Shown piece after piece: positions 13,321 to 34,689 of a DNA stretch of 64,000 nt. The notes below the pieces were generated by a model that was not told where the DNA came from, did no database searches, and saw only the letters and a list, made by a program, of their open reading frames with translations. The stretch is from Ostreococcus lucimarinus (Eukaryota): the NCBI GenBank assembly GCA_000092065.1, contig CP000592.1. One strand, given 5' to 3'. The first letter of the stretch is position 1, and every line of letters starts with the position of its first letter. A program made the position numbers and the translations under genes.

Positions 13321-13431
13321 ATGAACGACGACGACGCGGCGATTCGAGGGTATCTCGCGCGTCTGCGCGACGTCGAGGGCGAGGGCGACGCCAGCGCGGT
13401 GGACGCGCAGGGCGTGCTCGTGGAACTCAAG
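13321..13431 (+). CDS. PRKDC: DNA-dependent protein kinase catalytic subunit (DNA-PKcs), proposed exon 1 (37 codons). The intron is 13432-13511, GTGCGG..TAG, 80 bp.
   Basis: The big ORF starts at GTG 13542 with no ATG nearby. An upstream ATG exon (MNDDDAAIRGYLARLRDVEGEGDASAVDAQGVLVELK) ends at a phase-0 GT donor. A phase-0 AG acceptor at 13511 joins it in frame. The joined N-terminus aligns with the human DNA-PKcs N-terminus (…LLRLQETL…ECVL…FSRDFGLLVFVRKSL vs …LARLRDV…ERCES…FDRRAGVVAFVEATD). Confidence 0.5.
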
Positions 13432-13461
13432 GTGCGGCGACGACGACGACGACGACAGAAG

Positions 13462-34500: not shown

Positions 34501-34689
34501 GAGGTCGTCCCCAGCGACGAAGGCAACCTCGACGCCGAACGCGCTCTCATGCGCGTCAAACAAAAACTCGACGGTTACGAAGACGGCGAGCTCCGCTCCA
34601 TCGAAGGTCAGGTCCAACAACTCCTCCACGACGCCCGCGATCCACACAAATTGGCAGTCATGTACGCCGGCTGGGCACCGTGGGTGTAA
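25576..34689 (+). CDS. ATM: ATM (ataxia telangiectasia mutated) serine/threonine kinase, main exon, ~3,037 codons, uninterrupted.
   Basis: The kinase and FATC regions are near-colinear with human ATM: [115 protein letters not shown]. The C-terminus is ...YAGWAPWV (human ...FPGWKAWV). FAT blocks match too: LYGLLRS...[44 protein letters not shown]. Confidence 0.9.
   Translation, partial: [3037 protein letters not shown]

What the first reader, a model, noticed from the sequence alone, without database searches (positions are those of the whole stretch)
13321..34689. Tandem head-to-tail DNA-PKcs and ATM, both as giant intron-free ORFs, in an apparently green-algal genome
Two PI3K-related kinases lie back to back on the same strand, separated by ~260-450 bp (ATM exon-1 model vs ORF-track start). 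They occupy 21 kb, a third of the window. DNA-PKcs is the surprising one. The plastid gene content here (Psb27, D27, CRTISO-like, transit peptides) points to the green lineage, and land plants lack DNA-PKcs while retaining Ku, as far as I recall. The kinase/FATC match to human DNA-PKcs is unambiguous (FIVKGGEDLRQDERIQRLF, GDRHLDNILL..HIDFGYAFG..PELVPFR, ...WSGWRPWL). The tandem arrangement suggests either an ancient linkage or co-regulation of the two DSB-signalling kinases. Having DNA-PKcs makes the lineage a candidate for canonical Ku/DNA-PKcs NHEJ, which would need Ku70/80, XRCC4 and LIG4 elsewhere in the genome.
Basis: partly seen in the sequence, partly recalled or inferred. Interest (0 to 1): 0.6.

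Follow-up and report, generated by a model that had tools for sequence, protein, structure and literature searches.

The report
Adjacent DNA-PKcs and ATM genes, Ostreococcus
Two giant DNA-break-signalling kinase genes, DNA-PKcs and ATM, do sit head to tail in this tiny green alga (Ostreococcus lucimarinus), but DNA-PKcs in this genus and in most non-flowering plants is already published, and the side-by-side layout looks like ordinary gene order shared only within the genus.

Summary
The window is Ostreococcus lucimarinus CCE9901 (exact protein matches). On the + strand an ORF of 3,865 codons (13542-25139) is followed by one of 3,031 codons (25594-34689). The first is a DNA-PKcs orthologue. 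It has the DNA-PKcs-only Pfam domains N, CC1/2 and CC5, and scores 8e-155 against human DNA-PKcs versus 1.8e-40 against mTOR. The second is ATM (1e-146 against human ATM versus 1e-77 against ATR).

Each gene is almost, but not quite, intron-free. Each has a short first exon and one 5' intron of 80 or 117 nt. Both introns are conserved in relatives with only 48-59% protein identity. The gap between the genes is 259 bp.

- DNA-PKcs in O. tauri was reported in 2014, and its spread through green plants in 2021 and 2023. Only flowering plants lack it.
- O. tauri locus tags Ot12g01950 (DNA-PK) and Ot12g01960 (ATM) already show the adjacency.
- The pair sits in a wider collinear block in several Ostreococcus-like lineages. 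It is absent in a Micromonas-like contig, a Naegleria-like contig and a large-genome eukaryote.

"Ancient linkage" is therefore not supported, and co-regulation is untested. Low interest.

The parts
13321..13431 (+). DNA-PKcs exon 1 (37 codons, MNDDDAAIRGYLARLRD...VELK)
   Evidence: The ATG at 13321 opens a frame that ends at a GTGCGG donor. A similar 35-37-codon exon ending E(L/I)(K/R)|GTG lies upstream of the orthologues on L013 and L015. It is identical in L001.
13432..13511 (+). DNA-PKcs 5' intron (80 nt, GT..CTGAC..AG, phase 0); inferred, no RNA evidence
   Evidence: There is no in-frame ATG between the upstream stop (13509-13511) and M50 of the long ORF. The splice model gives a 3,912-aa protein with no stop. 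The splice position is conserved in 48%-identical relatives while the intron sequence differs.
13512..25139 (+). DNA-PKcs exon 2 (3,875 codons plus stop): N-HEAT, circular cradle, FAT, kinase, FATC
   Evidence: Pfam: DNA-PKcs_N 1.5e-45, CC1-2 6.5e-24, CC5 1e-16, FAT, PI3_PI4_kinase 1.3e-50, FATC. PDB: human DNA-PKcs 8e-155. dN/dS is 0.19 against a 94% relative.
21258..21296 (+). YRPD motif of DNA-PKcs (RSYRTGDLPDVKI)
   Evidence: It aligns to human RSYRHGDLPDIQI. The motif was defined in PMC8021618. Coordinates are calculated from the position in the ORF and are approximate to a few codons.
24033..24851 (+). DNA-PKcs kinase domain (VKGGEDLRQD, GDRHLDN, HIDFG)
   Evidence: Pfam PI3_PI4_kinase covers residues 3498-3770 of the ORF. 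The kinase-plus-FATC fragment alone scores 240 bits against human DNA-PKcs and 154 bits against mTOR.
25047..25136 (+). DNA-PKcs FATC (..AVAWSGWRPWL)
   Evidence: Pfam FATC 3.6e-07. It aligns to the human C-terminus.
25140..25398 (+). 259-bp intergenic spacer, the presumed ATM promoter; holds a 13-nt direct repeat at 25199-25227
   Evidence: The spacer is about 90% conserved in 94% relatives, in line with dS of 0.14. No E2F-like site is present.
25399..25458 (+). ATM exon 1 (20 codons, MDDIAALHDALRSDGLRKRR; resembles a TAN motif by eye)
   Evidence: The exon is conserved as MDD(I/L)..LRSD(G/K)LRKRR on L013 and L015. Similarity to the ATM N-terminus was not detectable by phmmer.
25459..25575 (+). 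ATM 5' intron (117 nt, GT..CTGAC..AG, phase 0); inferred, no RNA evidence
   Evidence: Reading on from exon 1 hits a stop at 25564. Close relatives carry an earlier in-frame TGA and about 8% substitutions here, against 1 in 60 in exon 1. The splice position RKRR|DG(I/V)K is conserved in divergent relatives.
25576..34689 (+). ATM exon 2 (3,037 codons plus stop): TPR_ATM, FAT, kinase, FATC
   Evidence: Pfam: TPR_ATM 1.7e-07, FAT, PI3_PI4_kinase 6e-61, FATC 9.4e-11. PDB: human ATM 1.1e-146, Tel1 9e-99, ATR 1e-77.
33688..34416 (+). ATM kinase domain ([24 protein letters not shown])
   Evidence: Pfam PI3_PI4_kinase covers residues 2699-2941 of the ORF. The motifs are read from the translation.

Best explanation
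The region holds the nuclear genes for two ordinary, vertically inherited PI3K-related kinases of Ostreococcus lucimarinus. One is DNA-PKcs (model 3,912 aa) and the other is ATM (model 3,057 aa).

Both proteins keep the catalytic motifs, FAT and FATC, so both are probably active Ser/Thr kinases. By homology, DNA-PKcs should be recruited by Ku70/Ku80 to double-strand-break ends and act in end joining. ATM should be activated at breaks through the Mre11-Rad50-Nbs1 complex and signal to checkpoints. Both functional roles are inferred, not shown.

Each gene has one short conserved 5' intron, and about 99% of its coding sequence is in a single exon. That is in keeping with this compact genome.

The head-to-tail adjacency is a piece of local gene order. 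It is shared by Ostreococcus-like lineages along with the neighbouring genes. It has no demonstrated functional meaning and is not an ancient linkage. The low GC of the two genes is a gene-length effect, because GC3 falls with distance from gene ends. It is not a sign of foreign origin.
For: - Species: exact matches to XP_001420649.1, XP_001420662.1 and XP_001420655.1 of O. lucimarinus CCE9901.
- DNA-PKcs identity: Pfam domains specific to DNA-PKcs (N, CC1-2, CC5) score above their cut-offs and lie in the same order as in the human protein. Whole-protein scores are 520 bits against human DNA-PKcs and 141 bits against mTOR. The kinase-plus-FATC fragment alone scores 240 against 154 bits. The YRPD motif is kept.
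- Published phylogeny: the O. tauri orthologue Ot12g01950 groups with human DNA-PK at 88% bootstrap (PMC4143559).
- Vertical inheritance: among the hits whose source was looked up, the best named one outside the Ostreococcus-like group is a liverwort DNA-PKcs (Riccia sorocarpa).
- ATM identity: 493 bits against human ATM and 264 bits against ATR, with TPR_ATM above its cut-off.
- Function retained: dN/dS is 0.19 over 3,831 codons with no stop, measured against a 94% relative.
- Introns.
- Synteny: O. tauri tags Ot12g01950 and Ot12g01960 are consecutive, and TopoI (Ot12g02020) and Spt16 (Ot12g02060) follow as they do in the window. Metagenome contigs L006, L008-L011, L013, L014 and L015 carry DNA-PKcs followed by ATM. 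L013 and L015 also share the flanking order IMPase, desaturase, CRTISO-like, A49, DNA-PKcs, ATM, with Erv1 and Psb27 also seen on L015.
- No ATM next to DNA-PKcs on L016, L017 or L018.
- GC3: Spearman correlation with ORF length is -0.79. GC3 is 0.66 near gene ends and 0.52 deep inside.
- Ku70 and Ku80 are listed as present in O. lucimarinus (PMC11936186).
Against: - No transcript data were available, so the splice sites and single-exon transcription are inferred.
- No full PIKK phylogeny including TOR, ATR, SMG1 and TRRAP was built here.
- The Pfam CC3 match is below its cut-off (18.2 bits against 28.9).
- Conservation of the T2609 phosphosite is uncertain. A weak alignment (10.8 bits) pairs STQ with human ETQ. 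PMC10419180 reports that the site is replaced in O. tauri.
- The organisms behind L013, L015 and L018 are not named. I inferred them from GC content, identity and gene order.
- Bathycoccus and the reference Micromonas genomes could not be examined directly.
- A priori, two given genes among roughly 7,600 are adjacent with a probability of about 3e-4 (my estimate). The adjacency is therefore unusual if taken on its own.
Confidence: 0.88

Rival explanations
1. The tandem layout is kept by selection. The two break-signalling kinases would share a regulatory domain, a promoter element or read-through transcription, so that their dosage is coupled.
For: The adjacency persists in lineages whose DNA-PKcs proteins are only 48% identical. 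The spacer is short at 259 bp, and its 13-nt direct repeat is kept in close relatives. Both genes have similarly low GC3.
Against: The whole block of eight or nine genes is collinear in the same contigs, so the pair is no better conserved than its neighbours. The adjacency is lost in a Micromonas-like contig. No E2F-like motif lies upstream of either gene, and the 13-nt repeat is absent from L013 and L015. The low GC3 follows gene length across the window.
Confidence: 0.07
2. The pair is a relic of the tandem duplication that created the PIKK paralogues, that is, an ancient linkage.
For: The two genes are paralogues, lie on the same strand and are adjacent.
Against: The two kinase domains are only about 28% identical, as far apart as the human pair. 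The split is usually placed before the last eukaryotic common ancestor (background knowledge). No adjacency was seen on the Naegleria-like contig, the large-genome contig or the Micromonas-like contig. Human PRKDC and ATM lie on different chromosomes (background knowledge).
Confidence: 0.02
3. The 21-kb low-GC block is foreign DNA, acquired from a virus or from another eukaryote.
For: GC is 0.48-0.51 in the block against 0.58-0.69 in the flanks.
Against: GC3 rises towards both ends of each gene and tracks ORF length across the window. The same dip is present in divergent orthologues. Gene order is conserved. The nearest named outgroup is a liverwort. The genes are under purifying selection.
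Confidence: 0.02
4. Gene 1 is a divergent member of another PIKK family (SMG1-like, TOR-like or ATM-like) that only resembles DNA-PKcs in its kinase domain.
For: Kinase domains of all PIKKs cross-match at 1e-34 to 1e-44.
Against: HEAT and cradle domains specific to DNA-PKcs match outside the kinase domain. The bit score against DNA-PKcs is 380 bits higher than against any other family. The YRPD motif is present. The top 150 library hits include named DNA-PKcs from a liverwort, an amoebozoan and an apusozoan.
Confidence: 0.01

Closest known systems
Ostreococcus tauri DNA-PK (Ot12g01950; OUS42981.1) and ATM (Ot12g01960), Hindle et al. 2014 (PMC4143559)
   Same: Same genus, same two genes and consecutive locus tags. 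The downstream genes follow in the same order (TopoI Ot12g02020, Spt16 Ot12g02060).
   Different: It is a different species. I could not obtain the O. tauri sequences to align. The adjacency appears in their table but is not discussed in the sections I read.
Human DNA-PKcs (PRKDC; PDB 5luq, 7k0y, 7nfc and others)
   Same: Same domain order, catalytic motifs, YRPD motif and FATC. The score is 8e-155.
   Different: The algal model is 3,912 aa against 4,128 aa for human. Identity outside the C-terminal third is low. CC3 is below its cut-off. Conservation of the ABCDE phosphosites is uncertain. The algal gene has one intron, whereas the human gene has many (background knowledge). In human the gene is not linked to ATM.
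Green-plant DNA-PKcs set in 'Lost in the bloom' (PMC10419180) and Lees-Miller et al. 2021 (PMC8021618)
   Same: These papers place DNA-PKcs in chlorophytes (O. tauri, Bathycoccus), charophytes, bryophytes, lycophytes, ferns and gymnosperms. The present gene is another member of that set.
   Different: O. lucimarinus is not named in the passages I read. Neither paper's main text uses 'synteny' or 'adjacent'.
Human ATM and fungal Tel1 (PDB 7ni4, 8oxm, 6sky)
   Same: Same FAT, kinase and FATC architecture and TPR_ATM. The size is nearly the same (3,057 aa against 3,056 aa). The score is 1e-146.
   Different: Similarity at the N-terminus (TAN motif) was not detectable by sequence search.

Membership tests
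DNA-PKcs (PRKDC orthologues) | PI3K/PI4K-type catalytic domain with the Lys, DRH..N and DFG motifs | tested here: met
   Pfam PF00454 scores 1.3e-50. VKGGEDLRQD, GDRHLDN and HIDFG align to the human motifs.
DNA-PKcs (PRKDC orthologues) | FAT domain and C-terminal FATC | tested here: met
   FAT scores 29.9 bits against a cut-off of 24.2. FATC scores 30.2 bits against 25.3.
DNA-PKcs (PRKDC orthologues) | DNA-PKcs-specific N-HEAT and circular-cradle regions | tested here: met
   DNA-PKcs_N scores 156 bits, CC1-2 84.7 bits and CC5 60.9 bits, all above their cut-offs. CC3 scores only 18.2 bits, below its cut-off of 28.9.
DNA-PKcs (PRKDC orthologues) | Closer to DNA-PKcs than to any other PIKK | tested here: met
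   Whole protein: 520 bits against 141 bits for mTOR. Kinase plus FATC: 240 against 154 bits. This is a similarity ranking, not a tree.
DNA-PKcs (PRKDC orthologues) | Groups with DNA-PKcs in a phylogeny of all PIKK families | not tested
   Reference TOR, ATR, SMG1 and TRRAP sequences were not obtainable. The published tree covers the O. tauri orthologue only (88% bootstrap; PMC4143559).
DNA-PKcs (PRKDC orthologues) | YRPD motif | tested here: met
   RSYRTGDLPDVKI aligns with human RSYRHGDLPDIQI.
DNA-PKcs (PRKDC orthologues) | ABCDE autophosphorylation cluster (T2609 and others) | tested here: inconclusive
   A weak 10.8-bit alignment pairs PLF-STQAQ with PMFVETQAS. PMC10419180 reports T2609 replaced in O. 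tauri and T2638 invariant.
DNA-PKcs (PRKDC orthologues) | Ku- and DNA-end-dependent kinase activity and a role in end joining | not testable with these tools
   The only support is indirect: Ku70 and Ku80 are listed for O. lucimarinus in PMC11936186.
ATM/Tel1 | FAT, kinase and FATC, with best similarity to ATM rather than ATR | tested here: met
   Scores are 493 bits against human ATM, 334 bits against Tel1 and 264 bits against ATR.
ATM/Tel1 | ATM-type TPR/HEAT solenoid | tested here: met
   TPR_ATM scores 31.3 bits against a cut-off of 27.
ATM/Tel1 | N-terminal TAN motif | tested here: inconclusive
   Exon 1, LRSDGLRKRR, resembles the motif by eye and is conserved in relatives. phmmer found no PDB match to the first 267 aa.
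Functionally selected gene pair or cluster | Adjacency conserved beyond background synteny and across genera | tested here: not met
   The pair is conserved only together with its neighbours in Ostreococcus-like contigs. It is absent on L018, L017 and L016. L020 and L021 were inconclusive.
Functionally selected gene pair or cluster | Shared regulatory element or co-expression | tested here: inconclusive
   No E2F-like site lies upstream of either gene. No expression data were available.

The most novel reading that the evidence does not exclude
The DNA-PKcs-then-ATM tandem could be under selection in Ostreococcus. It has been kept through enough divergence to leave the DNA-PKcs proteins only 48% identical. 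A shared chromatin or regulatory domain, or read-through from DNA-PKcs into the 259-bp-distant ATM promoter, would then couple the dosage of the two double-strand-break kinases in a cell with a minimal repair toolkit.
Probability: 0.07. Interest if true: 0.35.

Novelty: already known. Interest (0 to 1): 0.15.

Why it matters
The finding matters little beyond bookkeeping. It confirms that O. lucimarinus, like O. tauri, keeps a full-length DNA-PKcs under purifying selection next to ATM. It also supplies gene models (3,912 and 3,057 aa, each with one 5' intron) that I could not find by exact look-up in the protein collection. Ostreococcus can be manipulated genetically, so it remains a convenient photosynthetic system for studying DNA-PKcs. 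That point was already made in 2014 (PMC4143559). The adjacency is a small detail not discussed in what I read. It would become interesting only if co-expression or read-through transcription were shown.

Tried and rejected
- The word-index protein search performed poorly on these giant proteins. The full-length query timed out. The C-terminal and FAT-region queries returned only P0001 and P0002. It therefore could not fetch the annotated O. tauri, Bathycoccus or Micromonas proteins.
- Exact look-ups found nothing for my spliced models, for alternative start codons or for the ORF at 1470-4097. How GenBank annotates these two genes remains unknown.
- The one metagenome scan returned only relatives at 96-100% identity.
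- P0051, probably another mamiellophyte fragment, was not on record.
- L020 and L021 come from a single organism with 74% GC. Its DNA-PKcs is followed by ORFs with no Pfam hit and no ATM match. ATM N-termini diverge quickly, so this result is inconclusive.
- A search for E2F-like sites (TTTSSCGC) gave 26 matches against 35 expected, with none upstream of either gene.
- The TAN motif could not be confirmed by phmmer.
- A six-family PIKK tree was not built because no reference sequences were available.
- Foreign origin of the low-GC block was considered and rejected.
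Full report
OBSERVATION. The window carries two very long ORFs on the + strand, at 13542-25139 (3,865 codons) and 25594-34689 (3,031 codons).

SOURCE ORGANISM. Three window ORFs are identical to deposited proteins of Ostreococcus lucimarinus CCE9901. 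They are XP_001420649.1 at 126-1418, XP_001420662.1 at 59380-61887 and, within the Psb27 ORF at 34717-35532, XP_001420655.1. The neighbours include Psb27, a D27-like protein and a CRTISO-like amine oxidase. The 'green alga, Mamiellophyceae' guess is therefore right, and the sequence comes from a genome that is already published.

IDENTITY OF GENE 1. Pfam finds the generic PIKK parts: the PI3_PI4 kinase domain (1.3e-50), FAT and FATC. It also finds the domains specific to DNA-PKcs, in the same order as in the human protein: DNA-PKcs_N (1.5e-45), CC1-2 (6.5e-24) and CC5 (1e-16). A CC3 match falls below its cut-off. Against all PDB chains the best hit is human DNA-PKcs (8e-155, 520 bits), and the next family is mTOR (1.8e-40, 141 bits). 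The last 426 residues alone (kinase plus FATC) still prefer DNA-PKcs, at 240 bits against 154 bits for mTOR, 138 for SMG1, 134 for ATR and 132 for ATM.

The catalytic motifs VKGGEDLRQD, GDRHLDN and HIDFG and the C-terminal WSGWRPWL align to the human residues. The YRPD motif is present as RSYRTGDLPDVKI. The T2609 site is uncertain. A weak alignment pairs STQ with human ETQ, whereas PMC10419180 reports that the site is replaced in O. tauri.

An exhaustive HMMER search of 1.84 billion representative proteins gave 1,241 hits at E of 1e-30 or better. The two best full-length hits (56-57% identity over the last 1,200 residues) are metagenomic proteins of 3,855 and 3,917 aa. Among the next hits whose source I looked up are DNA-PKcs of the liverwort Riccia sorocarpa, of Polysphondylium and of Thecamonas. 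That pattern fits vertical descent within green plants.

IDENTITY OF GENE 2. Pfam finds the kinase domain (6e-61), FATC, FAT and TPR_ATM above its cut-off. PDB hits are human ATM at 1.1e-146, Tel1 at 9e-99 to 3e-82 and ATR at 1e-77. The translation shows [24 protein letters not shown] and a C-terminal YAGWAPWV.

GENE MODELS. Neither long ORF has an in-frame ATG near its 5' end.

For gene 1, the ATG at 13321 opens 37 codons ending at AAG|GTGCGG. A CTGAC branch-like site and TAG|G at 13510-13511 then join in phase to the long ORF. The intron is 13432-13511 (80 nt) and the protein is 3,912 aa.

For gene 2, the ATG at 25399 opens 20 codons (MDDIAALHDALRSDGLRKRR) ending at CGG|GTGCGT. CTGAC and AACAG|G follow at 25574-25575. 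The intron is 25459-25575 (117 nt) and the protein is 3,057 aa, against 3,056 aa for human ATM.

Comparison supports both introns. On contigs from relatives with only 48-59% protein identity (L013, L015), the exon-1 peptides and the splice positions are kept while the intron sequences differ. The junctions read E(L/I)(K/R)|GTG..TAG|(E/H)xCE for DNA-PKcs and RKRR|GT..CAG|DG(I/V)K for ATM. In 94% relatives the ATM intron carries an in-frame TGA and about 8% substitutions, against 1 in 60 in exon 1. No RNA evidence was available, so the splice sites remain inferred. 'Intron-free' should read 'one short 5' intron each, with about 99% of the coding sequence in one exon'. The gap between the genes is 259 bp.

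ARE THE GENES FUNCTIONAL? Against a relative of about 94% identity (L011), DNA-PKcs shows dN of 0.027 and dS of 0.141. That gives dN/dS of 0.19 over 3,831 codons with no stop codon. Environmental contigs at 99.9% identity (L006, L008, L009, L012) also keep the frame open.

WHAT IS ALREADY KNOWN.
- Hindle et al. 2014 (PMC4143559) reported DNA-PK in O. tauri (Ot12g01950). It grouped with human DNA-PK at 88% bootstrap. They found candidates in Physcomitrella and Selaginella and suggested loss in higher plants.
- Lees-Miller et al. 2021 (PMC8021618) found DNA-PKcs in chlorophytes, charophytes, bryophytes, lycophytes and gymnosperms, and found it absent in flowering plants and red algae.
- 'Lost in the bloom: DNA-PKcs in green plants' (PMC10419180, 2023) covers O. 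tauri and Bathycoccus explicitly. It notes that the gene is often missed or split in annotations.
- PMC11936186 lists O. lucimarinus among the species with both Ku70 and Ku80.

THE TANDEM ARRANGEMENT. In the kinome table of Hindle et al., ATM is Ot12g01960 and DNA-PK is Ot12g01950. These are consecutive tags. TopoI (Ot12g02020) and Spt16 (Ot12g02060) follow, matching TopoI at 40612-42969 and SPT16 at 44990-48712 in the window. The adjacency is thus implicit in published data, though not discussed in the sections I read. The 2023 paper's main text contains neither 'synteny' nor 'adjacent'.

Metagenome contigs show the same order. This holds for populations at about 100% and about 94% identity (L001, L006, L008-L011). 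It also holds for two more divergent lineages (L013 and L014; L015) whose DNA-PKcs is 48% and ATM 51-59% identical to the window's. In L013 and L015 the flanking genes are collinear too: DUF525, IMPase, desaturase, CRTISO-like, A49, DNA-PKcs and ATM, with Erv1 and Psb27 also seen on L015. The pair is therefore no better conserved than its neighbours.

Outside this group the adjacency was not found:
- L018 and L019 are contigs with 65-69% GC. Their DNA-PKcs kinase region is 59-62% identical to the window's, so they are Micromonas-like by inference. The gene there is followed by minus-strand ORFs and an SDF transporter, with no ATM.
- A Naegleria-like contig (L017) and a gene on a 41-Mb chromosome (L016) have unrelated neighbours.
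- An organism with 74% GC (L020, L021) gave no ATM signal downstream, but this result is inconclusive.

The two kinase domains are only about 28% identical, so a recent duplication is excluded. No E2F-like site lies upstream of either gene. A 13-nt direct repeat in the spacer is kept in close relatives but was not found on L013 or L015.

LOW GC. The two genes have GC of about 0.50 and GC3 of 0.54-0.56, against GC3 of 0.65-0.86 in their neighbours. Across 17 ORFs in the window, GC3 falls with ORF length (Spearman -0.79). Inside the two genes, GC3 is 0.66 within 600 nt of a gene end and 0.52 beyond 3 kb. The orthologues on L013 and L015 show the same profile. This looks like a general effect of gene length or distance from gene ends, not foreign DNA.

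VERDICT. Both genes are correctly identified. The evolutionary surprise and the 'ancient linkage' reading are not supported, and co-regulation is untested. This is a known gene in a known genome, with a minor adjacency that has not been discussed. Interest is low.

Noticed in passing
window 13512-34689, compared with ORFs across window 1-64000; also L013 and L015: GC3 falls with ORF length (Spearman -0.79, n=17). Inside DNA-PKcs and ATM it drops from 0.66 near gene ends to 0.52 more than 3 kb inside. Divergent orthologues show the same profile. This suggests GC enrichment centred on gene ends, from biased gene conversion or from expression-linked codon bias.
   Followed up: partly
window 40612-42969 (-), 44990-48712 (+), 49540-50613 (-): Three more DNA-metabolism genes lie within 25 kb of ATM: topoisomerase I, the FACT subunit SPT16 and a Rad51-family ATPase. 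This is probably chance. I did not test it against the genome background.
   Followed up: no
window 25199-25227: A 13-nt direct repeat (CTCGACAGCCACA, 2.2 copies) lies in the DNA-PKcs/ATM spacer. Both copies are kept, with the same A-to-G change in each, in relatives at about 94% identity. The core motif GACAGCCACA occurs nowhere else in the window and not on L013 or L015.
   Followed up: partly
window 39147-39221 (+): ARAGORN predicts a tRNA-Ser(CGA) that overlaps, on the opposite strand, the 5' end of the mechanical ORF for the Sof1/WD40 gene (37759-39303, -). Either the true start of that gene lies further downstream or the tRNA call is spurious.
   Followed up: no
window 126-35532: GenBank protein accessions run from ABO98942 (126-1418) to ABO98948 (Psb27). 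That leaves five numbers for at least eight recognisable genes in between. My DNA-PKcs and ATM models are not found by exact look-up. Some genes here may be unannotated or modelled differently in the deposited record.
   Followed up: partly
L018 1-11719 (and L019): A contig with 65-69% GC, probably Micromonas-like, carries a DNA-PKcs gene. Yet PMC11936186 lists 'Micromonas' as lacking both Ku70 and Ku80. Either the contig is not Micromonas, or the Ku survey missed the genes, or DNA-PKcs persists there without Ku.
   Followed up: no
L017 3832-9628: On the Naegleria-like contig, a 758-aa ORF with a DNA-PKcs_N match and a 1,146-aa ORF lie directly upstream of the full-length 3,906-aa DNA-PKcs. 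This may be a partial tandem duplicate or a mis-split longer gene.
   Followed up: no
L020 and L021: An unidentified organism with about 74% GC, on contigs of 222 kb and 722 kb, carries a DNA-PKcs 32% identical to the window's. It is followed by a long ORF of more than 2,290 codons with no Pfam match.
   Followed up: partly
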